Notes under the pieces: generated by a model
The model's input: the letters and a program-made list of their open reading frames with translations, nothing else
The model's database searches: none
Told to the model about the DNA's origin: nothing
In this document: positions 1-57,534 of the stretch, one piece after another
Numbering within the stretch: the first letter of the stretch is position 1
Layout of the letters: each line of letters opens with the position of its first letter
Position numbers and translations under genes: made by a program
Assembly: GCA_009914755.4 (NCBI GenBank)
Contig: CP086569.2
Location: 8,064,001 to 8,128,000 of the forward strand
Direction: 5' to 3'
DNA length: 64,000 nucleotides
From: the human T2T-CHM13v2.0 reference genome, Homo sapiens

Positions 1-3712
<3,712 letters not shown>

Positions 3713-10692: not shown

Positions 10693-11720
<1,028 letters not shown>

Positions 11721-16749: not shown

Positions 16750-17879
<1,130 letters not shown>

Positions 17880-26800: not shown

Positions 26801-29800
26801 ATCACAATGCACCATAAGTGCAGGGCAAATGAAGTAGAAGTCACATCGCTTACATGATAGACCTAGATATAAGCTACAATGCCTTTTATAGGCAGAGATA
26901 AGGCAAATAATTTACCTCGGCTGGGTGCTGGTCCCAGTGATATGTAAAAGTCCAATTTGTAGGCAGGTCCAGGCACCTTTGCTTAGGTTTATGTTCCATG
27001 TATGTCACAATTTCATCCATCATCATGGTTTAAATAATGAGAGTCAATTATTCAGGAGTGGGGCTAACTTTTATGTCCTAATCACACAACAGGAAATATT
27101 CAGAAATGTTTTTCATAGTCCCACACAAGTCTTGGCTTTGTATATGGGAGTCAACACCTCCTGTGATTTGGGTCAAAACAGAGGAGTCACAATCTGAACA
27201 ATGCACAAGATCCATGTATAAGATGCCAATTCCACTTGAAGATTGTGTTCCAGGAAGAGAGTCACAGCTTCACAGGTCTGCTGATTCATGCATCACCAAA
27301 GAACCCATTGGTCAGATTCGTGTATGAAAGAAAAAAATTCAAATTTTGACTGCTTTTTTTTTTAGTGAGATTTAGCACCTTATTTGTAGGCCCTATGCTT
27401 TGAGAGAATGACAATCACGTCAGCTGGGTGTGCATCCAAGAGTGAAAATAACATTTGGTTGCTGTTCTCTGTTATAACATTCTTTGTACCACTCACACTT
27501 TACATGATATGCTTGAGTGTCATAATCCTCTGTGAAATGTATACAATTAGGAGACCGATTACTTTACTTATGGCCATAAGGCTGCTATGAGAATCAAAAT
27601 ATCTCTCCTTTCTGGGTCTAGGTATGGTAGTTATATTTCTTCATGGTAGCTCAACCCAGGTATGTGTGCCAATTTCAACTGTGGGAAGAAACATGGTAGG
27701 AGAGTCTCACAACATGGATGCCTAGCTCAGGATACATTATAATCTCCTTTGCAAGCCATGCCAAGTCAGAAGACTCACGTCACCTGGGTACAGCCTCAAG
27801 TAATATGGTCTCGTGTCCGCTGTAGACAGGATTGAAGAAAAATAGGATAATCACACCACCTAGGTGCTGGGATTAGCAATATGTAATAATTGCTTGTTTT
27901 GGCCAGCTCCAGAATACAGAGAATAGTTGCATGCAATTGTATGTCACAATTTCTTTAATAGGTAAGACCTAGGCAGGAGAGAAGAGTCACATTTCCTAAA
28001 TGTTACCCCTGGAGGATGTCACAATGTTCCTTGGGGGCAAAGCAGAGGCAAAATAGAAAAATCAACTAGCAGATGGGTTCAGAGATATGTATTATCCATA
28101 CTTGGCAGGACCCCAGCAGAAAAGTCACATTATTATGATTCTGCCCCAATGATATGTCACAATGCACACAAGGGAAACAATTTAAACAAAAGTTTTAACA
28201 ACTGGGTACTAGGCTCAGTGATTAGACAAAATCTCCTCATATTTTAGGGTGACACCTTCAACAGTTATCTTGGTGTGTATATGAGTCACATTGTCAAGTG
28301 TGTGCTGCATCATTGTATGACACCCTCTACAACATCTGAGGGCTTTATACAGCAAGCATGAAAGTTGCAAACTACTCTGAGGCCCACATGCTCACATGGA
28401 CTCTCGATCTTATATATTGCCTTAAACTTGGGTGTGATAGTCAACATCTCTCATTTAGGCTGAGTTCAGGAGTGAGACTTATTTTTATGCCTCTGAATTG
28501 GCTCTAAAAATGAGACGCAATCACCCCTGTGGCCAGATCCACAAATTATAGTCACAATTCCAACTTTGAACTGTTTTTACTTGTTGGACTCAATACCTCA
28601 ACAATGGGCTTTGTAAATGTGGGATGGTGATAACCTTTACTTTCACCTGGGAGCTTAATTGAGAGTCACAATCCTAACTTTTTTTCTAGGCCTTGTTATG
28701 AATCTCTCTGTACCACCAAAGGAGTTTATACAATATTAATTAGTGTTGTAAATTTCTCTGAGTTTTGTACAAATATGCAAACCAGGATTTTACCTATTGC
28801 CCTAAGTCTAGTGATGAGAGGCAAAATATCTTCTATTGGTTGAATCCCAATATAAGTTTGAACATCATGCCTGTGAAGTGAAGCAAAGTATATGTCATAA
28901 TCTTATTTGTGGACAAAAAGGAAAAAGAATAACATCACTTTGGTTATGTGGTGAGCAACTTGTCACCATGCCTTCTCTAAGAAGGATATAGGAAGGAGGG
29001 TCCTATTATCTGGGAGCTGGACACAACAATATTACACAGTACTTCTTGTGAGAAAGATTAGCCAAAGGATGAAAGGTAAAACACCCTCAGAATAAGAAGA
29101 CATGTCAAAATTCTCTCTGTAGCTCTGGCACCAGAAGGACAGTAGCATCATCAGGGCGCTAGTCCCACCACTATGAAAAAATTGCCTCTTTATTCAGAAA
29201 TGCAGCAGAAGAGTAATATGAACTGAGTACAATAGATCAAAATTGCTCTTTGTGTGCATGGTTCAGAATAAAGAGTAGAGTCACATGACCTAAATGCTGG
29301 TCTCAGAAATATGTCCACAATCTCATCACTTTGAAGGGTGAAGCAGGGGAGGAGAATAATATCACTTAGGTCAGAGGCTCAGAGATAGATCCAAATGTCC
29401 TCAGTAGGCAGAACTCAGAAAGAAAAGGACAGTAGTATTTCCTATGTGCTTCTTTATGTATAAGTCAGAATCTAACACATGGGCAGAAACCTGGCAGAAG
29501 AGCCACTAAATTACCTGGGTTCTGGGTCCTTAGATATGTCACAAATCCCCCTTAGAATAGAAACAAGGTGAAACAGTTACATTGCCTTGGTGCCGGTTTC
29601 ACTTTCATGTCACAATGTTCTCTGTGGTTGAGGCCAAAATATTGAGTCATATCAACTAGGTGATAGAGCCAGATATATGTCACAATGTCCTCTATGAAGC
29701 ATAGCCCTGGGTAAAGAGTACCATCACCTGTGTGCCTCGCCTAGAAATATGTCACTCTCCAGGTTGGCAGGGACCAAGTAGATGAGCCGCATAACCCAGG

Positions 29801-32800
29801 AGAGAGTACCAGAGATATGTCACCAAGTAGAAGAGCCGCATAACCTAGGTGAGAGTACCAGAGATATGTCACAATGTCCTCTTTAGGGGATAGTTCTGGC
29901 AAAAAGTACCATCACCTGTGTGTCTGGCTTTGCAAAGTTACTATCCTTCCTTTGTGCAAGGCCTATCCAGAGAAGAGAGTTACATCACCCATGTGGTGGA
30001 CACAAAAATATGTCACAATAATTTTTGTGGGTGTGGCTCAAGCAAGATTGTAGAATCACGTGGATGCTAGATCCAGTGATATATCAAAACACTTACTGAA
30101 AGAAGGGCCCAGGCAGTAGAGTCACATCACCTTGAGGTTGGCCTAGGTAGGTATCACAATCCCAGATGTTGGCCTGAAGAAGTCTAGAGAGTCAAATTAA
30201 TACAGATGCCTGGCAAATAATTATATCACTATCTCACTGTCAGAAAATTCCAAAGATAAAGTTGGCAATAACACACAAGTCCTGTTTTCCTGTGTGACAG
30301 TTGACTTCATTCATGTGAGATAATGACAGTTCTTACTGTCAGGTGCATGTGCATAGAAGATTCAAACTCTCACCATGTGTTGAGCCCTGCTTTTACTCTG
30401 TCTCTATAACCCAAAGACTTTGTAAAACATATTTGAGCATTGTAATCTTTTGTGATGTTTGTATACGAAAGTTATCCAGGACATCACCCATGTCACTAAA
30501 TTGAGTTATAACAGTCAAAATATGCTCTATTTGCTGAGTCTACATATGACAGTCATTATCATTCCTGTGAGCTTTGCCTAGGTATATGTTAAAATTCCCT
30601 CTGTAGTTATGGGGCAGGCAGAACAGCAATGTCGCTGAAATGTTGGGCCAGAAATATTCCAGTATTCTCTTTGCACGAAGTCTCCTGTCTGAAATACCAC
30701 ATACCTTGTGTGCTAAATCCAGCACAGATTCCATTGTGGTCAGTGTCTAGACATGAGAGGAGAGTCATATCACCTAAAATCTGAACCCAAAAATGTCGAA
30801 ATCCCTCCTGTTGAGAGGGTCCAGAAAAGAGTGTCATGTCATTTGGATGCAATGTTTAGAAATGCTACAATTACTAAAGGAAGGTGGGTACAGGCCAAAG
30901 AGGAGAGTCATGTACCCTAAATAATAGCTTCAAAAATATGTATGTGACTATTACCCTGAAAACATCATCAAGGTAGCACAGTCAAATCACCAAGCTGCTT
31001 GACCCAGGTATTTGTCAAAATCTCATTTGTGGGCTATACCTAGGCAGAATTATTAAATTTCTCAGGTATTGGACAACGATGTATATACAATTACACTTGT
31101 GGAAAGGTTTAAAAATAAGAATCACCATCCTATACATGTCCTGTATCTAGACATAAGAGTTGTTATATGGCAGAATATCTCCTGTTGTCAGAGAGAAGGC
31201 AAAAAAGTCACATCATCTACGTGGGTGCAAGTCCAGTGAGATATGACAATCCACCTGGTGGGCAAGACCCTGGGAGAAGAGTCAGATCACCTGGAAGCTC
31301 CTTTCAGTGACATATGAAAAACTGCTTGGTGAGGGTTTTAGACTCAGAACTTCAACAGCGGCCTTTGTAAACATGGGATGGTGGCAACTTCTAATTTCAC
31401 CTGGGTGTGTAATAGAGAGTCCCAATCTGAACTGTTTGCTGGTCAACATTATGAAAATTTCTACCACAAAAGAGTTTATTCAGTACAATTTAGTGGTGTA
31501 AACTTCTATGAGCTTGGTACAAACATGCAACCCATGACCTTACCTATTGCCACAAGCCTAACAATGAAAGGCAAAATATTGTCTATTGGCTGAATCCCAA
31601 TATAAGTTTGATCATCATGACTGTGAACTGAATCAGGGTATATATTATAGTTACATATGTATGCAAAACACTAGGTAGGAGTGTAACATCATTTTGATGC
31701 TGTGCCAGAAAATATGTCACAATGCCTTCTCTGGGCAGGGTACAGAAAATTGATTCATATTAACTGCATGCTACAATATGATACAATCCCACACATGGGA
31801 AAAACCCAGTCAAGTTATGAGAGCCAAAATATATGTATAATATGCCTAATATACTCAACATACCTTGAGTAGCTCCAGCACAAGCAGGAAACTCACATAA
31901 GGGTGCTGGGACCAGCAATATGCAATGTATAAAATTAGCTGTTTATGCAGATTCCAGGTAGATAATTAACATCATCTGGGTGCTGGGCAATGCAATAAGT
32001 CAAAATTTCTTTATTGTGGGCATGGTTTGGGTAAAAGGGGAGAGTCACATATCCTAAGTGCTGGGCTCAACAATATGCCAAAATCCTCCTATTGTGGATA
32101 CCCAGGCAGGAAGGGAGAGTCACATCACTTAGGTCATGGGCTCAGAGATATGTCCCAACGTCCCAAGTAGGCAGGGTTCAGGTAGAAGAGGAGAGGCATA
32201 TCATGTATGTGCTTCCCTAGGAATATGTCACAATGTAACATGTGGGCAAAAACCAGGCAGAAGAGCCACATCATTTGGGTGCTTGATCCCTAGATATGTC
32301 AAAGGTGCTCTTAATGCAGCACCCAGCCAAGAGAGAAACATCATACTAGGTACAGATTCTCTGATTATGCCACAATGCTCTATTTGTGTAGGGTTCAAGG
32401 AGGGAGTCGCTTAACTGAGATTATAGGCCCAGAGATATATCACAATGTCCACTATGAAGTAGATCTCTGGCAAAAGAATGCTATAACCTATGTGCCTGGC
32501 CTAGAAATATGTCACTCTCAAGGTTGGAAGGGCCTAAGCAGCAGAGCAATATAACCTAGGTGATAGGCCCAGAGATATGTCATAATGCCCTCTTTTGGGG
32601 ATCCTCTGGCAAAGGAATACCCTTGCCTGTGTGACTTTTCTTGCAATATGTCACTATCCTTCTTTCGTAATATTCTCATTTCAGAGAGAAGACTTACATC
32701 AGCTGTGAGGTGGGTGCAGAAACATGTCACAATAATTTTGGCGGGCCTGGCACAGAAAAGTATGTAACATCACCAGGGTGCTAGATCCAGTGATATGTCA

Positions 32801-35800
32801 CAATCTTTACTGAAAGATATGATCAGGCAGAAGAGTCATATCACCTTGACGTTGGCCTTGGTAGGTATCATAATCCCATATGTGGGCTGGAACAAGTCTG
32901 GTGAGTCAAATTACACAGGTGATTGGCAAAGATTTATATCACAATCACACAGCCAGAGCATTTCAAAGATAAGATTTATGATACCACACATGTCCTGTTT
33001 TCATGTGTGACAGTTGCCTTCATTCATGTGAGATTGTAACAGTCCTTACTTTCAGTGTGGTGTGCATACAAGACTCACAATTTTGCCTGGGTGCTGAGCC
33101 CTGCTTTGACTCAGTCTACATAGTCCAAAGACTTTCTAAAATATACGTGAATGTTGTAATCCTTTGTGACCTTTGCACAAGAAGGAGATGCAGGACATGT
33201 CCCTAAACTTAACAATAGGGGTCAAAATATTCCCTATTTTCTAAGTCCACATATGAGAGTCATTATCATGCCCGTGAGCCATGTCTAGGTATATGTTAGA
33301 ATTCCATCTGTGGTTCTGAAGTAGGCAGAACAGCCACATCACCTAAATGCTGAGCTAGAAGCTAGAAGTATTTTGATTTTTTTTTTGTAGGCAGGGTCTT
33401 ATCAGAAATCTCACAAAACTTGTGTGCTAAATTCAGCTTTGTGGAACAATGTGCTTTGTGGCACAATGTCCTTTGTGGGCAGTGTCCAGGAAGGACAGGA
33501 GAGTAATATCACCTAAATGATGGCCTGAAAATATGTGAAAATACCAACTGCTGATAGCACCTAGGAAAGGAGTGATATCATTTGGATGTAGTGTTTAGAA
33601 AAGCTAGAATTACCAAAGGAAGCAGGGTACAGGCAAAAGAGGAGAGTAATGTAACCTAGATGAAGAGTCCAGGAATATGTTACAATCTCCCCTGAGGACA
33701 TTTTTAAGACACCTCAGTCAAACCACCAAGGTGCTTGGCCAATGTATCTGTCAAAAACTCATTTATGAGGTATACTTAGGCAGAACTATTAAATCACTCA
33801 GTAGTTGGGCAAAGGTATATGTCACAATTACCCTTGTGGAAAGGCTTAAGACTAAGAGCCACCATCTTGCGCAAATCCTAGGCTCCAGGCATGTGAGTTG
33901 TTATTAGGCTTCTGTTATAATCTCTGGTATGTGGCATTATATCACTTGTGGCAAGAGGAAAGAAAAAAAAAGAAAGAAAGAAATTCCCACCACCTATGAG
34001 GGTGCAGTTCCAGTGAGATGTTACAATCCACCTTGTGGGAAGGACCCTGGTGGAAGAGTCACATCACCTGGATACTAATTTCAGTGACATATCAAAACCC
34101 CCTCTCTGGGCAGGATTTTGGTAAGAGAGGAGCCTCACTTCACCAAGGCAATTGACCTAGATATATGTCACAATATTTTTTCCGTGCAGTAACAGAGCCG
34201 GAGAGTGGCATCACACTGTTGCTGAGTGTAGCTTTATTTCATAATCACCCTGTGGTCAAGGTACAGGCAAAAGCCAAGAAACATCACCTAGGTGCTGAGC
34301 CAAGTGATATGTTACCATGCTTCCTGTTGTCAGAACCCATAAAGTAGAATCACATCACCTTGGTTCAGTACATAGTTGTGTGTCACAATGCACTGTAAGT
34401 GAAGGGTCAAAGCAGTAGCAGGGAGCCATAATACTTACGTGATAGACCTAGATATAACACAGAATTCTTTTTGTAGGCAGATTTAATGCAGATAACTCAC
34501 ATCACCTGGGTGATGGTTCCAGTGATATATAGAAGTTCCCATTGTAAGCAGAGCCATGAAAGAGGTGATCTATTTCTTAGTTGCTTGTTCCACAGATGGC
34601 ACAATTTCTTCTGTGGTCTGGGCCTAGAAAAGAGAGTCAAATTGCTGATGCACTGGGCAAAGTTACCTTGTCCCAATCACACTCTCAGAAAGGTTCAGAA
34701 ATAAGTTTCACATCACACACAAGTCCTGGTTTTGTTTATGTGAGTCAACTCTTTCTATGAGTTGGGTTGAAGTAAAGAAGTCACAATCTCAACATTGAGG
34801 CAGATCCATGTATAAGATCCCCAATCCCACTTGAAGACTGTGTTCCAGTAGGAGAGTCAGAGCACAACAGTGTGCTGAATCATGGTTCAAATGTTACAAA
34901 ACCATCTGTGAATCAGATTCCTGAATGAGAGTAATTATTTCAACCTTCGACTGCTTTTTATCCGTGAGATTTAGTACCTCATTCCTAGGCCCTGTTCTGT
35001 GTGAGAATGACAATCATGTCAGCTAGGTGTGCATACAAGGGTCTCATTCGTGCCTCGTTGTTGTTCTTGCTTATGATCCTCTTTGTAACATTAAGACTTT
35101 ATATGATGTACCTGAGTGTTATAATCCTTTGTGAACTTTATAACATTGAAAAACCCAGGACTTTACCCAATGGCTGTGAGACTGGTTCTGAGAGCCAAAG
35201 TATCTCTACTGTCTAAGTCCAGGTATGAGAGTTATTATTATGCATCTGTGCTTAACCAAGCTACATGTTACAATTTCACCTGAGAGCAGGGAAAAGGCAG
35301 GAGAGTCTCATCACCTGGGTGCTGAGCCAGTGATACAGCATAATCTCATTCATAGGCTAGACCTATTCAGAAGAGTCACGTCACCTGGGTATAGCATCAA
35401 ATAATATGTCACCAACCCCACTATAGACAAGGGAGAAGAAAAAGATGAGTCACTCCCCATGGATGCTGTGCTGTGCAATATGTAATAATCCCCTTGCTGG
35501 CAAGCATCTAGAATATGAAGGAGAGTCCCTTCACCTAGGTTTTGCAGTCAGTGGAATGTCAGAACTTTTTTGGTAAGCAGGACCCTGTCAGGAGAGGAGA
35601 TCACATAATCTAGATGTTAAGCCAATCAATATTTCACGGTCTTCTGATGGCAGTGCACAGGCAGGGGCCACAAATTACCTAGCTTACAGGTCCAGAGATA
35701 TGGGATAATTTCCCCTGTTGGCAGGTCCCAGGCAGAACAGTCACATTATTATAATTCTAAACCAGCGGCATATCACAAGACACCCATGTGAAAAAAATTT

Positions 35801-37908
35801 AATCCAAAAAGTCACAACACCTGGGTACTAGGCCAAAACCTTTTGTCTCTGATGTTGACACCATTAAATATAAGCTGGGTGTGTATAACAGAGCCACACT
35901 TTTGCATGTTTCCTACCTTTTTTTATGACACTCTACAACATTTGAAGGCTTTATACAGCATCCATGAGAGTGGCAAACCACTCTGACCCCTACTTGCTAG
36001 TATGGATTCACGATCTTACACATTGCCCTAAAACCCAGGTTTTATGTCTTCTGTAGGCTGGATTAAGGATGAGATCCATTATTACTTTTGTGAGCTGGAT
36101 GTAAAAATGGGTCACCATCCCACCTGTGGTGAGATACACATAGGAAGGTCAAATTCCAACTTTGTACTGTAGTTACTTTTTGGAATCAGGACCTTAACAG
36201 TGGGCTTTGGCCATGTGGGATGGAAACATTTGCTTTCATTTAGGTGCATAATCAAGAATCCCAATCTGAACATTTTGCTGGTCCTTGTCTTGAAACTCTC
36301 TGCATCTCCCAAGGAAGGTGTTATAAGTAAGTGTTTTAATGTTCTGTAAGCTTTGTACAAATATGCAACCGAGGACCTTTCATATTGCCCTGAGCCTAGT
36401 GACGAAAGGCAAAATATCTCCTATTGGTTGAATTTCAATATAAGTTTGACCATCATGCCTGTGATCTCAAGTAATGTGTATGTCACAGTCCCATTTGTGA
36501 GCAAAAACTATGCAGCAGGGTAACATCTCTTTGGTGCTGTGCCAAGCAACATGTCACAATACCCTCCCTAGGCAGGGTACAGGAATTAGAGTCACATTAA
36601 ATTGGTGCTGGACTCAGCAATACAAAACCATCTTACCTGTGAAAGAGACCCAGCCAAAAGATAAGAATCAGAACACCTACATGATGGGCCCAGGACATGT
36701 CAAAATACGTTCCGTGGCTCCAGGACAGTCATGAGTCATGATATAATGTCCTCCTCTGGACAGTAAATTAACAGGGTTTGGCCCCAGCAATATACCATAC
36801 CTCTCTGTGTTTGCAGGACTTAGGCAAAAGAGGAACGTAACCTGGGTGCTGGGCCCTGCAATAGGCCAACAATTCTGATTGTGGGAATGGTTTCAGAAAA
36901 TAAGGAGAGTCAAACAACCTGAGTTCTGGGCTCTGCAATCCATTCATTGTAAAAATCAGACAGAAGATGAGTCACTTCACTTTAGTCTTGGGCTCAGAGA
37001 TATATCCCAATGTTCCCAGTATGCAGGTCCCATGAAGAAAAGGACAGTCATATCACTTAGGTGCTTCCGTAGTTGTATGTCACAATCTAACATGTGGGCA
37101 GAAACCAGGCAGAAGAGCCACACCACCTGGGTATGGCCTCAAGCAATATGTCACCATGCCCAATGTAGACAGTTTGCAGAAAATAAAGAAAATCACACCA
37201 CCTGGGTGCTGGGCTCAGAAATATGTAATAATTTCCTTTATTGGTACAATTCAGGACAAAGAGAACATTAATGTCACCTAGGTTTTGCACTCAGTTCAGG
37301 ACAAAGAGAACATTAATGTCACCAAGTTTTGCACTCACAATTTCTTCAGTGGACAGGATCCAGGCAGGAGAGCAGAGTCACCTTAGCTATATGCTATATC
37401 TAGCAATATGTTACAGAGTTCCCTATGGAAAAGGCACTGACAGGAGAGACATCTTACCTAGCCAACAGGCACAGAGATATGTGAAAATATCCCCTGTTTG
37501 CAGAGCCCAGGCAGAAGAGTCACAGTATTATGTTCTGATCCATTGATATGTAACATGCCCTTCTGGAAAATAATTTGAACCAAAAAGTCTCAACACTGGG
37601 GTACCAGGTCAAGGATATGACACAATCTCCTCAACTTTAAGGGTGACACCATTAACTGTTACCTAGTTGTGCATATGTCAGTCACAAACTCACGTGGGTG
37701 CTGGCCATTGTGTGACACTCTATACAACCTCTGAGAACTTTAAACAACATCCATGAGAGTTGAAAACTCACTGAGGCCTACATGCTTATATGGACTCATG
37801 ATCTTACATATTTCACTAAGCTCAGATATGACAGTCAACATCTCTCTTACACATGCTGGCTTCAGGGAGGAGACCATTATTAGCCCTGTGAGCTGGGTCC
37901 AGAATTGA

Positions 37909-38335
<427 letters not shown>

Positions 38336-41300
38336 GGTAATAACTTTTACTTTCACCTGAATGTGTTGTGGAGAGTCACAATACTAATATTTTTCTGGAC
38401 CCTCTTATGAAATTGTCTGTACCACCCAAGAAGGTTTTGTAATATAAGTTAGTGTTGTAAAATTCTGTAAGCTTGTTCAACTAAGCAATGAAGGACTTTA
38501 CCTACTGACCTAAACCTAGTGGTGAAAGGCAAAATATATCCAATTGGCTGAATCCCAATAGAAGCATGATCGTCATGCTTTTGAACTGAAGAAATGTATA
38601 TGTCATAACAATTTGTGGACAAAAATCTAGACAGAAGGTTGACATCACTTAGGTGCTACGGCAAGAAACATGATACAATACCTTGTGTAGGGGGGTCATA
38701 GGAAACAGGGTCACATTAACTGGGCTCTGGAGCCAGCAATATGGCACAACCTCACATGGAAGAAATCTAGCAAAGTGAGGAGACCCAAAACACATATGGA
38801 GTGGGCCAAAGATATATAAAAATAGCTTCTGTGGCTCTGGCACAGGCAGGAGAGTCACATCATTAGCATGCTAGGCCCAGCAATATGCTGAAATTCCTTC
38901 TTTATGCATGGCCCATGCATAAGTGTAACATAATCCAGGTGGGGGGACCTGAACTACAGCAAAATTCCTGTTTGTGAGCATTGTTTGGCAACATGATGAG
39001 AGTCACGTTTCCTAAGTACTGGACTCATCAGCATGTCACAATCTTCCCATTGTAAAAGCTTAGACAGAATAAGAAACTCACATCACTTAGGCCATGGGGT
39101 CAAAGATATGACCCAATAACACAAGTAGGCAGTGCTCAGGCGGAAATAGACAGTCATAACACCTAGATGCTTTTTTAGGTATATGTCACAATTTCATCCA
39201 TGTCCAGTCCTTTCATTCAGTTCTTTCTTTCTATCAGCTGGGTGTGCATACAAGACTCACAATTTCACCTGTATGCTGAGCCCTTCTTTGATTCTGCATG
39301 TATAACCCAAAGACTGTAAAATATGTGTGAGTGTTGTAATATTTTGTGACCTTTGTAGAAGAAGGTGATATGGGATATCACACATGTCCCTAAATGTAGT
39401 TATAATAGTCAAAATATCCTCTATTGTCTGAGTACACATGTAAGAGTCATTATCATTTCTGAGAGCCATGCCTAGGTATCAGTTACAACATTCTCTGTGG
39501 TTATAAAGCAGGCTGAATAGTCATATCGCCTAAATTCTGGACCAAACATATTCCAATATTCTCTTTGGAGGCAGGGTCGTGTCAGAAATGTCACATAACT
39601 TGTGTGCTAGATACAGCTCTGTGGCACAATGTTATTTGCGGGCAGTGTCCAGGCAGAAGAGGAGAGTCATATCACCTAAATGTTGAGCCCCAAAATATGT
39701 CACAATGTCTCCTATTGGCAGGACACAGACAAAATTGTCATATCATTTGGATATAGTGTTTAGAAATGCTACAATTACCAAAGCGAGCTGGGTACAGGCA
39801 GGAGAGGGGAGCCATGTAACCTAGGTGATGTGTCCAGAAATATGTTACAAAATCCCCTGAGGACATTGTTAAGATAGCAAGAGTCAAATCACCAAGGTGC
39901 TTGACCCAGGTGTTTGTCAAGATCTCATTTGTGGGTGATACCTAGGCAGAATTATTAAATCTCTCAGGAGCTGGGCAAAGGTACATGTCACAATTACACC
40001 TGTGGAAAAGTTTAAGAGTCACCATACTGCACATGTCTTGGCTCCAGGCGTATTAGCTGTTATTAGGCTTTTGTTATGGTCTCAGGTATATGGCACAATA
40101 TCACCTCTGGTCAGAGAGAATGCAAGAAAGTCACATCACCTACATGGGTGTGGCTCCATTGAGATATCACAATCCACCCTGTGGGCAGAACCTTGGCAGA
40201 AAAGTCACATCACCTGGCTGCTGGTTTGAGTGACATCAAAGCCCCATTGTGAACATGACTTTGGAAAGAGGGGAGACTCAGTTAACCTAGGCAATTGACC
40301 TAGGTATATGTCACAATGGCCCTTATGTGCAGTACCAAGGCTGGAGAGTGACCTCACATTGGCCCGTTGGTTCAGCAATATGTCACAATCGGCCTGTGGT
40401 GAGGGCACAGGCAAAAGTGAAGAAATATCACCTTAGGTTCTGAGCTGAGTGATATGTTACAATGCTTCCTGCTAGAAGAATGCAAAAAAGAGTATCTCAA
40501 CACCTGGATGAAGTGCCCAGTTAAGTGTCACAATTCACTGTAACTGAAGGGCCAAGGCAGTACAAAGGAGTCACATCACTTATGTGATGGACCTAGATAT
40601 AGGACACAATTTTCTTTGTAGTCAGGCTTCAGGCAGATAATTTACATCACCTTGGTGATGGTACCAGTAATATATAAAAGTACCCTTTTTAGGCAGACTC
40701 AAGGAACATGTTATATATTGCTTAGGTGCCTGTTCCACATATGGCACAATTTCATTGTGGTCTGAGCCTAGAAAAGAGAGTCAGATTATTTATGTGCTGG
40801 GCAAAGTTACCTGCCCCAATCACATGCTAAGAAAGGTTCAGAAATAATTTTCACAACCCACACAAGTCCTGGTTTCATGTATGTGAATCAATCCTGTCTA
40901 TGACTTAGGCCAAAGTAGAGGAGTCACAATCTGAACAATGGGCAAGATCCATGTATAAGAGCCCCAATGACTTATTGTGTCAATGAGATTGTGTCATATC
41001 ACTGGGCTTAGTAGCCCATTGTTAGAACTTTTGTTTAAATTGTTTCCCATGTGTGCATTATAACACTCTTCTGCCTGGGTACTGCAAACAAGAAATATTG
41101 TCACATGTCTCTGAGCCTATCTGCTAGGTGATTTGTCTGTTTTAGCTGTGCTTTGCTCCCAGGGAACATTGTGACATCTTTTAATGTGGCACCTAGGAAA
41201 TGTGACTTCTCTTTTCTGCCTAGGTCCTGTGCACTAAAGAAATATGTACATAGTGCTGAATGCAAAACTTAAATAATGCAACTCTCCTCTTTTTTTCTGG

Positions 41301-42691
41301 AGTCTGAAAAAAGAGGGCATTATTAAATATTGCTGAGGCTAGCACCTTAATGCTGTATCCAGATGATATAACTCTTCTGACTTGGCACTGTCTGCAAAAG
41401 AGATTATAATGTATTCTGAGCTCAAAATCCTGGTGATGAGACTCTTCTTCCTTAGTTCTGCCCACAGGAGAAATAGTGACATATACATGAGTTCAGCTCA
41501 CATGTACAAATATAGCTATCATACCTGGACCCATAAAGAAGAGACATTTGGACTCTCAAAACTGGTCGTATGTCCATAAGTAAAGCAATGGGTCTACTAA
41601 TTTTATAAAGTTCACAGAGGACTATGACACTCAGGCATATGATATAAATCCTGAGTGAGTCAGGATTTATACTCAATGTGACTACTATTGAGTATAAAAC
41701 CTAGGTGATATATCCACAGGGACAGCAAGCCATTGCTATTGTGACTCTTGGATAAACACTCAGCTGGCACATTTATGTATCACTGGGACCAGCATCCAGG
41801 TGATGTGAATTCTTTGCCTGAGTGCTGCCTAAAAAGAGCATTTTGGCTTATATCTAGATCAATCAAGTAAGTGATGTGACTCTCTTCTACTGCCTTCACC
41901 CTGCACTTATGGTGCATTGAACACATAACTGGGTTCTGCACCCAGGTGATGTGACTCTCCCTTTTGGGTTCTGCCAACAAGAAGCTTTGTAACATATCAC
42001 TTTGCTCAGCACCTAAGTCATGTTTCTTCTATCTTATCTCGACCTGATCACAGGGGAGACTGTGACATATTGATAAGTCCAGCACCAAGGCGTGGTCACT
42101 TTCACACCTTGGTTTTGCACATAGCAGCCATTGTGATGTGTATCTATTCCAATTGCCTAGGTTACATGAGCCTCCTCTCTTTCTTAATCCTTGCCAACAG
42201 GTGGAATTTTGATATATCACTAAAACCAGCATCCAGATGATATGATTCTTCTTCCAGGGTCCTGCCCACAGATGGATTGTGACATCTCACTGGACCAGCA
42301 CCCACCCAGGTGTGGTGACCTTCCCACTTGCTTGCCACCCACAGGTGATATTGTGCCATGTACTTAAGATGAGATAAGAGGACTAATGATGACTCTTAAA
42401 TCCGGAGACAGGTCATATGCAAGATGGTGACTCCCAATCCTGAAGCATTTCACTAGTGTGATTGTGACATATACATTTGCCCAGCTTCTGAGTGATTTCA
42501 TAATCCTGCCTAGGTGTAGTCCACAGGTGAGATTCACACATATACTTCAGCTGGTCACCACGGTGATTTGACTCACCTGTCTTAACAATATCCTCAGAAA
42601 GTATTGTAATATGTCTCTGAATCCATCATCTAGGTTACCTGTCTCTCCTCCTCTGCCTGGACCCTGCTTCCATTGGGGATTGTAGCAATAT

Positions 42692-42768
42692 TTTTCCTTT
42701 TTCTTTTTTCTTTTTGTCACCTAGGTTGGAGTGCAGTGGTGCAATCTCAGCTCACTGCAACCACCGCC
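42692..42768 (-). mobile_element. Severely 5'-truncated Alu (only ~55 bp of the 3' end plus T-rich tail) inserted in the satellite with a ~15-bp TSD TTGTAGCA(A)TATTTTT
   Basis: tttttcctttttcttttttctttttgtcacctaggttggagtgcagtggtgcaatctcagctcactgcaaccaccgcct is the reverse complement of the Alu 3' end. It is flanked by gattgtagcaatattttt on the left and ggaggttgtagcattttt on the right. The uninterrupted copy at 52660 reads ccagtgcagactgtagcatttttatgcac. Confidence 0.6.
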
Positions 42769-45700
42769 TTGGAGGTTGTAGCATTTTTAAGCACTGCATG
42801 CAAATGACATGACTCTCTTTCCTCATCCTTTCAAGCAACTTTTCTTCCCGGAAATTGCCTACAAGGAGAATATTTGAAAATTCCTGATTCAGCATGTAGG
42901 TGTCTTGGCTATCACACCTGTTTCATTACCACAGAGAAAACTGACATATAACTAGGCACAACTCATAGGCATAATAATGACTCATACCTCACAAATAGGA
43001 GTAATTTTTGACTCTCGTTATGGGCTTTAGAAATATAAGTGATTAATACTCTCAGCTAAAAAAAAAAAGGTCTGAGATTATAATGGCCTCAGAAATTTTA
43101 TAAAGCCTTTGGCTTGTGCAGAGAGTTTAATGACAGAACACAGAAGAAAGATAAAATTCTGAGTCTCATACACACATCCAGCTGATAGTAAAGACCGTCA
43201 CCATCTCATATATATGAAGCCAGATGTCACTACTGAAAACAAGATATGTGCGGTATTGTAAATCTTATCCAGGAAATTTTCTGCCAGTGTGGCTGTGACA
43301 TAAATATTTGCCAAGCACCTCTGTGATTTGACTCTCCAGACTGGTTTCATCCCACATATGTTATTGTGATATGTACCTAGGCCAACCTCTAGGTGAGGTA
43401 ATTCTCCTGCCTGGGCCTTGCTGTCAGTGAGAATCATAACATATCAGTAGATTCAGCACCCTAGTCATGTTATGTTTTTGCCTGAGCCCTGCCTACAGAA
43501 ATCACTGTGACATATCACTAGGTCAACAACTTACGTGATGTAAGTCTCCTCATTTTAATGGGCCCTGTGCATTGTGGGGGATAGTGACATATGGCTGGGC
43601 TAGAAACAAAGCTGATGGTACTCTTTTGTGAGGGCCATGTCCTAAAAAGGGCATTATGACAAATCTCTGGGTCTTCACCTAGGTGATTTTGCTCTCCTAC
43701 TTGGGTCATGTTTACCTGTATAGTGACATGTTGCTAGGCTAAGTACAAATGTAATGCTACACTTTCACCAGGGCCATGCTTCAGGGGGACATTGTGACAT
43801 ATCTCTGGGCCTATCACTTAGGTGATATGACTCCCTGCTTGGGTCCTGCCCACATAGAGCATTGAAACATAAGGGCAAAAACTGCACCAGTTTGCTGTCT
43901 CTTGCTTGGGTCCTGTCCTAAGGGAGCCTTGTGACATAGCTCAGGATCCAGCATCAAGGTGATGTGGCTCTTTTGCCTGTTTTCACCTAACATGTAAGAT
44001 TGTGTCATGTATCTAGGGAAGCAACTACCTGATATGTGATATGAGTCTTCTGTTCTGTTTGAGCCCTGCCTACTTGGGATATTTGGCCATATATCTGAGC
44101 TCATGTCCTAAGTGATGTGACCCTGTTTTTCCACCAGAGACTTTATAATGGGTTAATGTGAACTATTTCTAAGTCCAATACTTAGATAATATAACTCTTC
44201 ATTTTTTCCTGAACTTTTCCCTAAGAAGAGGAATTGTGACATATTACTGGGCTGAGCACACAGATGATGCTTCTCTGCTGCCTGGGTCATTCATAAAGAG
44301 AGAATTATGGCATATATTTGGGCCCCCAACCCTGATGATGTAAGTCTCCTGCCTGTGACATAGCAACAGAAAGTATTTTAACATACCTTGGGCCCATGTT
44401 GTAGGTGTGTTTGCTCTCATCATTTGTCTATTTTTCTTCCAAATTTGGGATTGTGTTATATTGCTGGTTCCAGCAGCCCAGTTAATGTAACCTTCATTTC
44501 TACATCCTGCTTAGAGGGCATTGTGACATATTGCTTGGCAGAACACCTAAGTTGTGCTACCCTCTTGCCAAGTTTTTTCCTACAAATTGGATTATTAAAT
44601 TTACATTGCTTCTATTCAGAGGGATGATGATCAAATTTAAATTGTGATTACACCAATAGTTCATATTTTGCCTCTCGTCGCTATGTATATGGCAATAGGT
44701 AATGTTATGAGTTGTATATTTGTACAAAACTTAGAGAATGTTACAACTCTAACTCAGATTCTATAAACTTACTGGGTGGTACACAGAGTTTTATAACAGG
44801 GTCCAGCAAAAGATTAAGATTGTGATTCTTGATTACATATGCAGATGAGAACAAATGTTGTCATCATCCCACATTTACAAAAGCCACTGTTGAATTCCTG
44901 AATCTAACAAGTAAATAAGGTACAAAGATGGAATTTTGACTTTCATATGTGGATCTTGCTACAGATGAGATGGTGACTTATTTCTGGACACAGATCACAG
45001 GCATAATAATGAGTCTCCCATCTCAACCCAGCCTATAAGGGAGATGTTGACTCATAGCTGGGTTTAAAGCAATATATAAGATTGTGAGTCACTATGAGCA
45101 TGTATGCCTCAGAGTGGATTGCTACTCTTATGTATGTTGCATAAAGCTTTCCAATGTTGTAGAATGTGTCATACGGTGAGCCAGAAAACACATGAGATTG
45201 TCACTCTCATATACACATCAAGCTAGAAGTTAAAGATGTCACACTAAAAAATGAAGAGATTGTGTCCTATCTCTAGGCCTAGTACTCCTAGGCGTTGAGA
45301 ATTTTTTGCTTAAATTCTCTTTTTTTTTTTTTTTACTGAAAATATTATGTTTATTTATTTATTTATTTATTAGTATTATTATACTTTAAGTTTTAGGGTA
45401 CATGTGCACAATGTGCAGGTTAGTTACATATGTATACATGTGCCATGCTGGTGTGATGCACCCATTAACTCATCATTTAGCAGTAGGTATATCTCCTAAT
45501 GCTATCCCTCCCTCCTCCGTCCACCCCACAACACTCCCCAGAGTGTGATGTTCCCCTTTCTATGTCCATGTGTTCTCACTGTTCAATTCCCACCTATGAG
45601 TGAGAATATGCAATGTTTGGTTTTTTGTCCTTGTGATACTTTACTGAGAATAATGATTTCCAATTTCATCCATGTCCCTACAAAGGACATGAACTCATAA

Positions 45701-46526
45701 TTTTTATATGGCTGCATAGTATTCCATGGTATATATGTGCCACATTTTCTTAATCCAGTCTATCAGTGTTGGACATTTGGGTTGGTTCCAAGTCTTTGCT
45801 ATTGTGAATAGTGCCGCAATAAACATATGTGTTCATGTGTCTTTATAGCAGCATGATTTATAGTCCTTTGGGTATATACCCAGTAATGGGATGGCTGGGT
45901 CAAATGATATTTCAAGTTCTAGATCCCTGAGGAATCGCCACACTGACTTCCACAGTGGTTGAACTGGTTTACAGTCCCACCAACAGTGTAAAAGTGTTCC
46001 AATTTCTCTACATCCTCTCCAGCACCTGTTGTTTCCTGATTTTTTAGTAATTGCCATTCTAACTGTGTGAGATGGTATCTCATTGTGGTTTTGATTTGCA
46101 TTTCTCTGATGGTCAGTGATGGTGAGCATTTTTTCATGTGTTTTTTGGCTGCATAAATGTCTTCTTTTGAGAAGTGTCTGTTCATGTCCCTCACCCACAT
46201 TTTGATGGGTTTGTTTGTTTTTTTCTTGTAAATTTGAGTTCATTGTAGATTCTGGATATTAGCCCTTTGTCAGACGAGTAGGTTACAAAAATTTTCTCCC
46301 ATTCTGTAGGTTGCCTGTTCACTCTGATGGTAGTTTCTTTTGCTGTGCAGAAGCTCGTTAGTTTAACTAGATCCCATTTGTCAATTTTGGCTTTTGTTGT
46401 CATTGCTTTTGGTGTTTTAGACATGAAGTCCTTGCCCATGACTATGTCCTGAATGGTAATGCCTAGGTTTTCTTCTAGGGTTTTTATAGTTTTACATCTA
46501 ACATTTAAGACTTTAATCCATCTTTA

Positions 46527-46709
<183 letters not shown>

Positions 46710-46712
46710 CTA

Positions 46713-46820
<108 letters not shown>

Positions 46821-46937
46821 TTAGGATTGACTTGGAGATGTAGGCTCTTTTTTGGTTCCATATGAACTTTAAAGTAGTTTTTGCAATTCTGTGAAGAAAG
46901 TCATTGGTAGCTTGATGGGGAGGGCATTGAATCTTTA

Positions 46938-47977
<1,040 letters not shown>

Positions 47978-48835
47978 TCAGTCCTGTCCTGGACTCTTTT
48001 TGGTTGGTAAGCTATTGATTATGGCCAAAATTTCAGATCCTGTTATTGGTCTATTCAGAGATTCAATTTCTTCCTGGTTTAGTCTTGGGAGGGTGTATGT
48101 GTCGAGAAATTTATCTATTTCTTCTAGATTTTCTAGTTTATTTACGTAGAGGTGTTTGTAGTATTCTCTGGTGGTAGCTTGTATTTCTGTGGGATCGGTG
48201 GTGATATCCCCTTTATTATTTTTTATTGCGTCTATTTGATTCTTCTCTCTTTTTTTCTTTATTAGTCTTGCTAGCGGTCTATCAATTTTGTTGATCCTTT
48301 CAAAAAACCAGCTCCTGGTTTCATTAATTTTTTGAAGGGTTTTTAGTGTCTCTGTTTCCTTCAGTTATGCTCTGATTTTAGTTATTTCTTGCCTTCTGCT
48401 AGATTTTGAATGTGTTTGCTCTTGCTTCTCTAGTTCTTTTAATTGTGATGTTAGGATGTCAATTTTGGATCTTTCCTGCTTTCTCTTGTGGGCATTTAGT
48501 GCTATAAATTTCTCTCTACATACTGGTTTGAATGTGTCCCAGAGATTCTTGTATGTTGTGTCTTTGTTCTCGTTGGTTTCAAAGAACATCTTTATTTCTG
48601 CCTTCATTTCATTATTTACCCAGTAGTAATTCAGGAGCAGGTTGTTCAGTTTCCATGTAGTTTGGCGGTTTTGAGTGAGTTTCTTAATCCTGATTTCCAG
48701 TTTGATTGCACTGTGGTCTGAGAGATAGTTTGTTGTAATTTCTGATCTTTTACATTTGCTGAGGAGAGCTTCACTTCCAACTATGTGGTCAATTTTGGAA
48801 TAGGTGTGGTGTGGTGTTGAAAAGAATGTATCTGT

Positions 48836-48935
48836 CTAATGTTGACAGTGGGATGATGACAGTGGGGTGTTGACAGTGGGGTGTTCACAGTGAGGTGTTA
48901 AACAGAGGGGTGTTGACAGTGGGGTGTTAAAGTCT
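48836..48935. repeat. 14-bp tandem expansion (tgacagtggggtgt)x~6 inside the L1 ORF2 endonuclease-coding region
   Basis: Consensus L1 reads …ctaatgttgacagtggggtgttaaagtctccc…. Here it reads ctaatgttgacagtgggatgatgacagtggggtgttgacagtggggtgttcacagtgaggtgttaaacagaggggtgttgacagtggggtgttaaagtctccc. Confidence 0.7.
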
Positions 48936-49814
48936 CCCATTATTATTGTGTGGGAGTCTAAGTCTGTTTGTAGATCACTCAGGACTTGCTTTGTGAATCT
49001 GGGTGCTCCTGTATTGGGTGCATATATATTTAGGATAGTTAGCTCTTCTTGTTGAATTGATGACTTTACCATTATGTAATGGCCTTCTTTGTCTCTTTTT
49101 ATCTTTGTTGGTTTAAAGTCTGTTTTATCAGAGACTAGGATTGCAACCCCTGCCCTTTTTTGTTTCCATTTGCTGGTAGATCTTCCTCCATCCTTTTATT
49201 TTGAGCCTGTGTGTCTCTGCATGTGAGATGGGTTTCCTGAATACAGCACACTGATGGGTCTTGACTCTGTGTCCAATTTGCCTGTCTGTGTCATTTAATT
49301 GGAGCATTTAGTCCTTTTACATTTAAAGTTAGTATTGTTATGTGTGAATTGATCCTGTCGTTGTGATGTTAGCTGGTTATTTTGTTCGTTAGTTGATGCA
49401 GTTTCTTCCCAGACTTGATGTCGTTACAATTTGGCATGATTTTGCAGTGGTTGGTACTGGTTGTTCCTTTCCATGTTTAGTGCTTCCTTCAGGAGCTCTT
49501 TTAGGGGAGGCCTGGTGGTGACAAAATCTCTCAGCATTTGCTTGTCTGTAAAGTATTTTATTTCTCCTTCACTTATGAAGCTTAGTTTGGCTGGATATGA
49601 AATTCTGGGTTGAAAATTCTTTTCTTTAAAAATGTTGAATATTGGTCCCCACTCTCTTCTGCCTTGTAGAGTTTCTGCTGAGAAATCCACTGTTTTTACT
49701 ATACTGCATAGGTCATACAGAAAAAGAAAATTATAGCATATAGCTGCACCCAGCTCCCTAATGATATGACTCTTCTGCCTATGCCAGAGCCACAGAAGGT
49801 ATTTTGACACATCC

Positions 49815-50502
49815 ATTGTTTAGATGAATGTATAACTAGAATAACCAATGCAGAGACCTCCTTAAAGGAGCTGGTGAAGCTGAAAGCCAAGGCTCGAGAA
49901 CTGCGTGAAGAATGCAGAAGCCTCAGGAGCCGATGCAATCAACTGGAAGAAAGAATGTCAATGATGGAAGATGAAACGAATGAAATGAAGCAGGAAGGGA
50001 AGTTTAGAGAAAAAAGAATAAAAAGAAAGGAGCAAAACCTCCAAGAAATATGGGACTATGTGAAAAGACCAACTCTACGTCTGATTGGTGTACCTGAAAG
50101 TGACGGGGAGAATGGAACCAAGTTGGAAAACACTCTGCAGGATATTATCCAGGAGAACTTCCCCAACCTAGAAAGGCAGGCCAACATTCAAATTCAGGAA
50201 ATACAGAGAACACCACAAAGATACTCCTCCAGAAGAGCAACTCCAAGACACATAATTGTCAGATTCACCAAAGTTGAAATGAAGGAAAAAATGTTAAGGG
50301 CAGCCAGAGAGAAAGGTCGGGTTACCCACAAAGGGAAGCCCATCAGACTAACAGCGGATCTCTCAGCAGAAACTCTACAAGCCAGAAGAGAGTGGGGGCC
50401 AATATTTAACATTCTTAAAGAAATGAATTTTCAACCCAGAATTTCAGATCCAGCCAAACTAAGCTTCATAGGTGAAGGAGAAATAAAATACTTTACAGAC
50501 AC
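49815..50502 (+). mobile_element. Inverted L1 ORF1 segment (codons ~95-300) forming the 5' end of the complex L1 insertion. It overlaps by ~45 codons with the ORF1 portion present in the minus-strand body.
   Basis: tttagatgaatgtataactagaataaccaatgcagagacctccttaaaggagctggtgaagctgaaagccaaggctcgagaactgcgtgaagaatgcagaagcc matches the L1 ORF1 coiled-coil region. The match ends at …gaaataaaatactttacagaca. Both this segment and the minus segment encode SAETLQ.RREWGPIFNI.KE.NFQPRIS.PAKLSFI.EGEIKYFTD. Confidence 0.8.
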
Positions 50503-57350: not shown

Positions 57351-57502
57351 CTTCTTCTTCTTCTTTCTTCTTCTTCTTCTTCTTCTTCTTCTTCTTCTTC
57401 TTCTTCTTCTTCTTCTTCTTCTTCTTCTTCTTCTTCTTCTTCTTCTTCTTCTCCTCCTCCTTCTCCTTCTTCTTCTCCTTCTCCTTCTCCTTCTCCTTCT
57501 CC

Positions 57503-57534
<32 letters not shown>

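What the first reader, a model, noticed from the sequence alone, without database searches (positions are those of the whole stretch)
40940..41040. Abrupt head-to-head polarity switch of the beta-satellite array, with no spacer or transposable element at the junction
Up to ~40,975 the monomers read gagtcacatcacct…atatgtcacaatg (for example …gagtcacaatctgaacaatgggcaagatccatgtataagagccccaat). From ~40,987 they read as the reverse complement (gattgtgtcatatcactgggcttagtagcc…, then attgtgacat…ctgggcc…cacctaggtgatgtgactc for the remaining 23 kb). The larger divergent HOR blocks are also inverted; the MIPHMSCF pseudo-ORF block is on the plus strand at 18.8-39.4 kb and on the minus strand at 43.2, 53.3, 60.2 and 63.6 kb. 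The switch sits inside a monomer. No Alu, L1, unique filler or simple repeat lies within ±500 bp. The last '+' unit (…caagatccatgtataag…) and the first '-' unit (…cccattgttagaac…, compare the HOR piece ggatcttgcccattgttgag) may map to nearly the same HOR position, which would make the junction a palindrome centre. The two arms are not mirror images in repeat spacing, so any inverted duplication is old or the arms homogenised independently. Arrays in inverted orientation are candidates for hairpin or cruciform formation, replication-fork stalling and isodicentric rearrangement. In an assembly they also mark a place where misjoins occur.
Basis: seen in the sequence. Interest (0 to 1): 0.7.

Follow-up and report, generated by a model that had tools for sequence, protein, structure and literature searches.

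The report
Orientation flip in decayed beta-like satellite
A degenerate primate satellite array really does reverse direction within about 15 bases at 40.97 kb. This is an ordinary inversion scar of a kind already catalogued in satellite DNA, not a palindrome and not a structure-forming element.

Summary
A profile built from the window's own ~70-bp monomers finds 201 '+' copies, all ending by 40,965, and 156 '-' copies, all starting at or after 40,983, with no exceptions. The junction is 0-14 bp wide (40,969-40,982). No transposon, simple repeat or unique filler lies within ±500 bp.

- **Family:** the array is a diverged beta-satellite relative. Spacing peaks at 71 bp, not 68. The GATCAGTGC box is absent. 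Identity to a canonical monomer recalled from memory is about 79%.
- **No HOR:** there is no homogenised higher-order repeat. The multi-kb blocks are 66-81% identical.
- **No palindrome centre:** the left arm ends at the unit position equivalent to 34,825 and the right arm at the position equivalent to 28,235, roughly 1-1.3 kb apart. The nearest same-position inverted pair is 77-78% complementary and 1,081 nt apart.
- **Arms not homogenised separately:** block subfamilies are shared between the arms.
- **No hairpin or cruciform potential:** fold z = -0.40, and the longest exact inverted match within 2 kb is 17 bp.

The best reading is an inert breakpoint made by end joining, possibly with microhomology, inside a pre-existing array beside a zinc-finger pseudogene. 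Strand switches in beta-satellite arrays are already documented genome-wide. Interest is low.

The parts
15414..40968 (+). Left arm of the diverged ~71-bp satellite array. It holds 201 '+' monomers. It is interrupted by L1 fragments at about 16.83-17.88 kb and 19.08-20.83 kb and by an Alu at 38,034-38,336.
   Evidence: nhmmer profile hits; spacing mode 71 bp; block self-alignments; Alu match; L1 ORF fragments.
39227..40968 (+). Terminal left-arm block. It is homologous to 33,045-34,825 in direct orientation, and to 63,646-61,906, 60,227-58,519 and 53,135-51,478 in inverted orientation. In all paralogues the homology continues past the point where this copy is cut.
   Evidence: alignment A1; 79-80% identity to U-type copies in both arms.
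40969..40982 (.). Junction interval GACTTATTGTGTCA, 14 bp of ambiguous origin. It can be read in three ways: as left-arm continuation with a 4-bp deletion, as right-arm continuation with a ~10-bp deletion (overlap GTGT), or as filler that repeats ATTGTGTCA from 40,988-40,996.
   Evidence: Alignments A1, A2 and A3; sequence read.
40983..64000 (-). Right arm of the same array in reverse orientation, with 156 '-' monomers. It runs off the window end. One L1 insertion (45,318-50,505) and a (CTT)n tract at 57,351-57,605 interrupt it.
40983..45316 (-). Junction-proximal right-arm block. It is the inverted counterpart of left-arm 23,427-28,235 at 73-85% identity. It ends at the junction about 30 bp past a block boundary.
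40432..40684 (+). Left member of the nearest same-position inverted pair. Its partner is 41,766-42,017. The pair is 77-78% complementary with 1,081 nt between the arms and is centred at about 41,225, not at the junction.
   Evidence: the repeat finder I1 and I2; blastn HSP 39,767-40,684 vs 42,687-41,766 at 72.7%.
41766..42017 (-). Right member of that inverted pair.
41658..41765 (-). Remnant left by a ~470-bp deletion in the right-arm copy relative to all paralogues (equivalent to 26,951-27,420). The deleted stretch includes the position at which the left arm ends.
45318..50505 (-). L1 composite insertion with a poly(A) tail and a GAATTTAAGC target-site duplication. Removing it restores array continuity, so the right arm is a single array.
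   Evidence: alignment A3.

Best explanation
The junction is a genuine rearrangement breakpoint inside an old, decayed beta-satellite-like array in a primate genome. A head-to-tail array had already been built from about 19-kb super-units, each made of dissimilar multi-kb blocks. It was broken at two non-equivalent positions, and one part was rejoined in reverse. The joint formed by non-homologous or microhomology-mediated end joining or template switching. It leaves 0-14 bp of unassignable sequence and no foreign DNA. The second breakpoint lies outside the window. Today the junction is an inert scar. The flanking arms are too diverged (about 20-30%) and too offset to pair as a hairpin or cruciform or to support homologous exchange.

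Shown: the switch, its position, the non-equivalent break positions, the shared block subfamilies and the lack of pairing potential. Inferred: the joining mechanism, and simple inversion rather than inverted duplication.
For: - The strand partition of 357 monomers is perfect.
- The left arm ends at the equivalent of 34,825 / 27,223 / rc61,906 / rc58,519 / rc51,478. In all five paralogues the sequence continues (CCCACTTGAAGATTGTG...).
- The right arm ends at the equivalent of rc28,235 / rc15,757, and those paralogues also continue.
- Both ancestral partners carry (T/G)GTGT at the joint, which is compatible with 4 bp of microhomology.
- T-type, H-type and U-type block subfamilies each occur in both arms. 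Same-arm copies of one type are 79-80% identical, no closer than cross-arm copies at 75-80%. The array therefore diversified before the arms were separated.
- No long inverted homology exists at the break that could have mediated NAHR.
- AT skew flips sign at the junction.
- Strand switches are a documented feature of beta-satellite arrays (over 200 breakpoints on chr1 and the acrocentrics) and of diverged alpha satellite (Altemose et al., bioRxiv 10.1101/2021.07.12.452052).
Against: - The second breakpoint expected from a simple inversion is not in the window, so inversion and inverted duplication cannot be separated.
- The age is undetermined and there is no outgroup or second haplotype.
- The fine reading of the 14-bp joint is ambiguous because the surrounding sequence is highly degenerate.
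- No independent assembly or read data could be obtained.
Confidence: 0.6

Rival explanations
1. Fold-back or inverted duplication. One arm was copied from the other after a break, leaving a single-copy spacer at the turn-around, as in human inverted duplications with a disomic spacer.
For: - Same-position inverted arms exist with a spacer of the right order: 40,432-40,684 vs 41,766-42,017, 1,081 nt apart.
- At larger scale, 31,451-40,968 vs 61,829-51,478 has a ~5.3-kb pre-L1 spacer.
- Most 500-bp tiles have their best match in the opposite arm.
- Spacers and short inverted sequences at the spacer boundary define the fold-back model (PMC3907307).
Against: - The junction-flanking arms are not each other's closest relatives. 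The left terminal block is 79-80% identical to copies at 58.5-63.6 kb and 33-35 kb, but only 67% identical to the adjacent right-arm copy.
- Cross-arm nearest neighbours are expected anyway, because each arm holds only about one copy of each block type.
- The one block type with two same-arm copies (U'' and U) is as similar within the arm (79-80%) as across arms.
- No anti-diagonal is centred on the junction.
Confidence: 0.2
2. Boundary between two large inverted segmental duplications. Each would carry its own satellite block and zinc-finger gene, and they were juxtaposed head-to-head when a ZNF/satellite cluster expanded.
For: - A degenerate C2H2 zinc-finger pseudogene lies at about 10.75-11.72 kb beside the array.
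- ZNF clusters interspersed with beta-satellite blocks are described for human 19p12 (Eichler 1998, as cited in PMC3018141).
Against: - The L1 pair 1-3,357 / 45,473-48,831 is in direct, not mirrored, orientation.
- No ZNF sequence is seen on the right side within the window.
- Both arms share the same block order logic, U then T then H, which fits one array better than two.
- The Eichler paper itself could not be read.
Confidence: 0.1
3. Assembly misjoin that joined two reads or contigs from opposite strands within a repeat.
For: Repeat arrays are classic misjoin sites. No read data are available here.
Against: - Flanking sequence is effectively unique. Every block differs by at least 19% from any other copy in the window, and exact repeats are at most 35 bp. 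There is no near-identical repeat to confuse an assembler.
- The break positions match neither a monomer boundary nor a block boundary on both sides.
Confidence: 0.05
4. A structure-forming palindrome, active in cruciform formation, fork stalling or isodicentric formation.
For: Arrays are in inverted orientation. In long single-stranded DNA, inverted repeats up to about 25% diverged and far apart can still interact in yeast (PMC10164571).
Against: - The fold energy of ±150 bp is no different from shuffles (z = -0.40).
- The best straddling inverted repeat is 77% complementary with a 1,081-nt spacer.
- The longest exact inverted match within 2 kb is 17 bp.
- Arm divergence of 20-34% is at or beyond the limit reported.
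Confidence: 0.03

Closest known systems
Strand switches (inversion breakpoints) in human beta-satellite and diverged alpha-satellite arrays, catalogued in T2T-CHM13 (Altemose et al., bioRxiv 10.1101/2021.07.12.452052)
   Same: An abrupt change of monomer polarity inside a satellite array, in old diverged sequence that also carries L1 and Alu insertions. One search reports over 200 breakpoints in beta-satellite arrays and describes flanks that 'accumulate mutations, inversions, TE insertions'.
   Different: This array is far more diverged than the pericentromeric beta-satellite arrays described there. It has a 71-bp rather than 68-bp spacing and sits beside a ZNF pseudogene. Whether this particular junction is in their tables could not be checked.
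ZNF / beta-satellite cluster organisation of human 19p12 (Eichler et al. 1998, Genome Res 8:791; known here only through citations in PMC3018141 and PMC2671837)
   Same: Tens of kb of beta-satellite-like sequence next to KRAB-ZNF-type zinc-finger sequence. The window has a C2H2 pseudogene at 10.75-11.72 kb.
   Different: The chromosomal location was not testable because no primate genome was available. The paper could not be read, so I cannot say whether it describes polarity switches.
Fold-back inverted duplications with a disomic spacer (Hermetz et al. 2014, PMC3907307)
   Same: Inverted arms separated by a kb-scale asymmetric spacer, with a junction showing little or no homology.
   Different: Those arms are identical when formed. 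Here the arms adjacent to the junction are 67-73% identical and are not each other's nearest relatives.
Near-perfect large palindromes and AT-rich palindromic repeats that form cruciforms or isodicentrics (established knowledge: Y-chromosome palindromes, PATRRs)
   Same: Head-to-head repeated DNA.
   Different: Those have arms over 99% identical with short or no spacers. Here complementarity is 77%, the spacer is 1,081 nt and there is no excess fold stability.

Membership tests
Beta satellite (Sau3A / BSR family) | Tandem head-to-tail monomers of about 68 bp | tested here: inconclusive
   The array is tandem, but spacing peaks at 71 bp (median 71, IQR 70-75) with a second peak at 75-76 bp. Only 9 of 270 adjacent spacings are 68 bp. 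TRF detects no array because the copies are under about 70% alike.
Beta satellite (Sau3A / BSR family) | Highly conserved GATCAGTGC block in most monomers (stated in PMC2671837) | tested here: not met
   There are 0 exact and 3 one-mismatch occurrences in 64 kb. The window consensus has GCTGGGCCC at that place.
Beta satellite (Sau3A / BSR family) | Sequence similarity to the family consensus | tested here: inconclusive
   56 of 71 aligned positions are identical. The score is 38, against a shuffle mean of -2.9 and maximum of 6. This is strong as a lead and weak as a test.
Higher-order repeat (HOR) array | A multi-monomer unit repeated at high identity (typically at least 95%) | tested here: not met
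   Multi-kb blocks are 66-81% identical. No periodic high-identity unit appears in TRF.
Satellite-array inversion breakpoint (strand switch) | Same repeat family on both sides, in opposite orientation, with an abrupt transition | tested here: met
   201 '+' and 156 '-' monomers from one profile, with no exceptions and a gap of at most 17 bp. Block subfamilies are shared across the junction.
Satellite-array inversion breakpoint (strand switch) | A reciprocal second breakpoint (tail-to-tail junction) | not testable with these tools
   The right arm runs off the window at 64,000. The left arm ends at the array edge near 15.4 kb, and that edge shows no specific relation to the junction (61.9-73% identity to the right-arm end, against 73-85% for the 28.2-kb copy).
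True palindrome or cruciform-forming inverted repeat | Arms meet at the same repeat position, giving a symmetry centre at the junction | tested here: not met
   The left end corresponds to the position of 34,825 / 27,223 and the right end to 28,235, about 1-1.3 kb apart in unit coordinates. At monomer level the left arm ends at about profile position 63-70 and the right arm at about 33. No anti-diagonal is centred at 40.98 kb.
True palindrome or cruciform-forming inverted repeat | Near-identical arms with a short spacer and excess fold stability | tested here: not met
   77% complementarity and a 1,081-nt spacer; z = -0.40; a 17-bp longest exact inverted match within 2 kb.
Fold-back inverted duplication | The arms flanking the spacer are each other's closest relatives | tested here: not met
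   The left terminal block is 66.9% identical to the adjacent right-arm copy, against 79-80% to distant copies in both arms.

The most novel reading that the evidence does not exclude
Both break positions may be recurrent weak points of the repeat unit rather than random sites. In homologous coordinates:
- The left break lies 58-60 bp from the end-point of an independent 3.4-kb tandem duplication (boundary at 61,847). It also lies inside an independent ~470-bp deletion (41,658-41,765).
- The right break lies within about 90 bp of an independent deletion boundary (23,403/23,427) and of an L1 insertion site with a GAATTTAAGC target-site duplication. Both are in an unusually AT-rich linker.

If real, specific sites in this satellite unit repeatedly break. 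Possible causes are L1-endonuclease nicking, or template switching at the monomer's dyad-symmetric CACCT/AGGTG core. That could help explain why beta-satellite arrays carry so many strand switches.
Probability: 0.1. Interest if true: 0.4.

Novelty: already known. Interest (0 to 1): 0.15.

Why it matters
It matters little biologically. It is one more inversion scar in decayed satellite DNA, a class of event already counted genome-wide in complete human assemblies. The practical value is in annotation. The site should be recorded as a strand switch in a diverged beta-like array next to a ZNF pseudogene. It should not be flagged as a palindrome, a fragile site or a likely misassembly. The clustering of independent rearrangement end-points at the same two unit positions is the only aspect worth a wider survey.

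Tried and rejected
- **TRF** on the whole window found no satellite array because the monomers are too diverged.
- **Rfam** gathering scan gave 0 hits.
- **Palindrome-centre hypothesis** rejected from block and monomer coordinates.
- **Ancient global palindrome at about 41.2 kb.** Three HSPs share that centre. This was rejected because the one-sided 5.2-kb L1 insertion should have shifted the distal ones.
- **Staggered-break inversion of the whole left arm.** This predicts that 15,414-15,757 is the closest copy of 40,985-41,325. The observed identity is 62-73%, lower than the 73-85% of the 28.2-kb copy.
- **Link between the right-arm 470-bp deletion and the left-arm terminal 284 bp.** Rejected because the left block is U-type and the right block is H-type.
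- **Independent confirmation of the junction.** Exact junction-spanning patterns gave 0 hits in metagenome contigs and genome contigs. Three array ORFs are not on record in the gene-position index.
- **Literature.** Eichler 1998 is not held. Searches for a printed beta-satellite consensus and for BSRa/BSRf names gave nothing usable.
- **ZNF naming.** A large protein search to name the ZNF pseudogene was not run, because it would not change the verdict.
Full report
**What the window is.** Alu sequence occurs at five places and L1 ORF1/ORF2 fragments at several, so this is simian primate DNA. From about 15.4 kb to the window end it carries a very degenerate tandem satellite. TRF does not report it. 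A profile HMM iterated from four seed monomers converges on 357 copies with this 70-bp consensus:

GGTGCTGGGCCCAGAAATATGTCACAATGCCCTCTGTGGGCAGGGCCCAGGCAGGAGAGTCACATCACCT

Adjacent copies are spaced with a mode of 71 bp and a second mode at 75-76 bp. Profile hits cover 43-49% of the two arms. The rest is too decayed to score, or is transposon sequence.

**Checking the observation.** All 201 '+' monomers end at or before 40,965. All 156 '-' monomers start at or after 40,983. No hit lies on the wrong side. Three other measures agree. K-mer matches to the 25-40 kb region flip from direct to inverted between the 40- and 41-kb bins. Three anchor motifs flip strand at the same point. AT skew changes sign there.

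**Anatomy of the junction.**
- *Left side.* Five paralogous copies align with the left arm up to ...CATGTATAAGAGCCCCAAT, ending at 40,968. They are 34,825 and 27,223 in direct orientation, and 61,906, 58,519 and 51,478 in inverted orientation. All of them continue CCCACTTGAAGATTGTGTTCCAG..., which the junction lacks.
- *Right side.* Paralogues at 28,235, 15,757, 23,457 and 45,255 align with the reverse strand from 40,983-40,985 onward. They continue in the other direction with sequence the junction lacks.
- *The 14 bp between (GACTTATTGTGTCA).* It can be read as left-arm continuation with a 4-bp deletion. It can be read as right-arm continuation with a ~10-bp deletion, in which case the two overlap in GTGT. 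Or it can be filler that repeats ATTGTGTCA found 14 bp downstream. The sequence is too decayed to choose.
- *What is firm.* The joint is 0-14 bp wide and contains no transposon, simple repeat or unique insert. The 500 bp on each side are array sequence.
- *Monomer register.* The left arm stops near profile position 63-70 and the right arm near position 33. The joint is therefore not symmetric even at monomer scale.

**Large-scale structure.** Self-alignment shows multi-kb blocks that are 66-81% identical, with recurrent boundaries at 23.4, 28.2, 31.3 and 39.2 kb on the left and at 45.3, 53.5-53.9 and 61.84 kb on the right.

Read in its own direction, the left arm is U''-T-H-t-U-T'. The right arm is X-U-T-e-H. 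The right arm is interrupted by an L1 whose poly(A) tail and GAATTTAAGC target-site duplication are intact. Removing that L1 restores continuity.

These are old block duplications, not a higher-order repeat in the usual sense of a unit repeated at 95% identity or more.

A tree of the nine copies of one 1-1.7-kb block type separates three subfamilies, and each has members in both arms:
- T at 21.7 kb pairs with 53.1 kb.
- H at 25.5 kb pairs with 42.7 kb.
- A star-like U group contains 39.2, 33.0 and 30.3 kb from the left and 63.6 and 60.2 kb from the right.

Block diversification therefore came before the arms were separated, and the arms were not homogenised independently.

Most 500-bp tiles have their best match in the opposite arm. 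This does not prove an inverted duplication, because each arm holds only about one copy of each block type. Where a same-arm copy of the same type exists (U'' at 17.9-18.9 kb against U at 32.0-33.0 kb), it is as close (79-80%) as the cross-arm copies (75-80%).

**Is it a palindrome centre?** No.
- In unit coordinates the left arm ends at the equivalent of 34,825 / 27,223, and the right arm at the equivalent of 28,235. These are roughly 1-1.3 kb apart.
- The nearest truly corresponding inverted pair is 40,432-40,684 against 41,766-42,017. It is 77-78% complementary, 1,081 nt apart and centred at about 41,225.
- Inverted alignments between the arms centre at 34.4, 37.7, 46.6 and 51.4 kb and elsewhere, not at 40.98 kb. 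The predicted X pattern is absent.
- The 300 nt around the junction fold no better than shuffled sequence (z = -0.40).
- The longest exact inverted match is 17 bp within 2 kb and 35 bp between entire arms.

The published rule is that distance and divergence between inverted repeats suppress instability. Even in long single-stranded DNA, heterology beyond about 25% does so (PMC10164571). Against that rule, a present-day role in cruciform formation, fork stalling or isodicentric exchange is not supported.

**Most likely origin.** The best-supported account is a two-break rearrangement of a pre-existing head-to-tail array. The ends were joined by end joining or template switching, with at most a few bases of microhomology. 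There is no inverted homology at the break to have driven NAHR, and no transposon sequence to implicate an insertion-mediated event.

Whether the event was a simple inversion or an inverted duplication with a spacer cannot be decided. The far end of the right arm is outside the window. A spacer-type geometry does exist: 1.08 kb locally and about 5.3 kb at block scale (compare PMC3907307). However, the arms next to the joint are not each other's closest relatives: 66.9% identity against 79-80% to distant copies. That counts against a fold-back after block diversification.

A misassembly is unlikely on internal grounds, since every flanking block is at least 19% different from any other copy. 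No reads or independent assemblies could be obtained to test this.

**Family and context.**
That is far above shuffles.
- The 71-bp spacing and the absence of the GATCAGTGC block (the block is described in PMC2671837) make this a diverged relative rather than a typical member.
- A degenerate C2H2 zinc-finger pseudogene lies on the minus strand at 10.75-11.72 kb. It has TGEKPY linkers, an 84-bp (28-codon) periodicity, sub-threshold Pfam zf-C2H2 hits and many stop codons.
- That fits the ZNF/beta-satellite organisation reported for human 19p12 (cited in PMC3018141). The location could not be tested, and the primary paper was not available.

**Novelty.** Strand switches inside satellite arrays are an established observation. 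The T2T centromere study counts inversion breakpoints per satellite family. It reports over 200 in the beta-satellite arrays of chr1 and the acrocentrics, and it describes diverged flanks as accumulating mutations, inversions and transposon insertions. This junction is an ordinary instance of that class.

**One loose end.** In homologous coordinates, both break positions lie within 60-90 bp of end-points of other, independent rearrangements in paralogous copies:
- a 3.4-kb tandem-duplication boundary at 61,847;
- a ~470-bp deletion at 41,658-41,765;
- a deletion boundary at 23,403/23,427;
- the L1 insertion site.

A rough post-hoc estimate puts the chance of both coincidences near 1%. I record it as unexplained rather than as a finding.

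Noticed in passing
window 10,750-11,720 (minus strand): A degenerate C2H2 zinc-finger pseudogene. It has three TGEKPY-type linkers, three C..C...H...H patterns and an 84-bp tandem periodicity at 11,034-11,248. Pfam zf-C2H2 and zf-H2C2_2 hits fall below the gathering cut-off, and there are many in-frame stops. It suggests a ZNF/satellite cluster context such as human 19p12.
   Followed up: partly
window 45,318-50,505: An L1 composite inserted in the right arm only. ORF2 lies on the minus strand at 45.8-47.9 kb. ORF1 lies on the plus strand at 49,874-50,533, with an inverted ORF1 piece at 49,424-49,816. There is a poly(A) tail at about 45,320-45,335 and a GAATTTAAGC target-site duplication. The internal orientation change suggests a 5'-inverted (twin-priming-like) element or two nested L1s.
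   Followed up: partly
window 1-3,710 and 45,473-49,149: Two L1 stretches in the same orientation are 90% identical over about 3.6 kb (1-3,357 = 45,473-48,831; 3,473-3,710 = 48,911-49,149). They could be two insertions of one subfamily or a segmental duplication. This was not resolved.
   Followed up: no
window 16,820-17,762: Adjacent L1 pieces in opposite orientations: 16,820-17,172 matches 46,297-46,649 directly at 95%, and 17,171-17,762 matches 45,939-45,350 inverted at 93%. They interrupt the left arm. This is the pattern expected of a 5'-inverted L1 insertion.
   Followed up: no
window 57,351-57,605: A (CTT)n tract of about 84 units sits inside the right arm with no counterpart in the homologous left-arm block (35.4 kb). 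It is a secondary microsatellite expansion within the satellite.
   Followed up: no
window 54,182-54,318 vs 49,4xx-49,9xx: A 137-bp stretch inside the right-arm satellite matches the L1 ORF1-containing region near 49.4-49.9 kb at 92% identity. It may be a small L1 fragment embedded in the array. It remains unexplained.
   Followed up: no
window 61,847; 41,658-41,765; 23,403-23,427; 45,318/50,505 (homologous to the two junction break sites): End-points of four independent rearrangements fall within 60-90 bp, in homologous unit coordinates, of the two positions broken at the 40.97-kb junction. The four are a 3.4-kb tandem duplication, a ~470-bp deletion, a ~1.5-kb deletion boundary and an L1 insertion. 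The right-hand site is an AT-rich linker (TTTAAACAAAAGTTTTAAC).
   Followed up: partly
window 38,034-38,336: A young-looking Alu (1 mismatch in the first 36 bp of the consensus head) is inserted in the left arm only. The homologous right-arm block (54.78 kb) lacks it.
   Followed up: no
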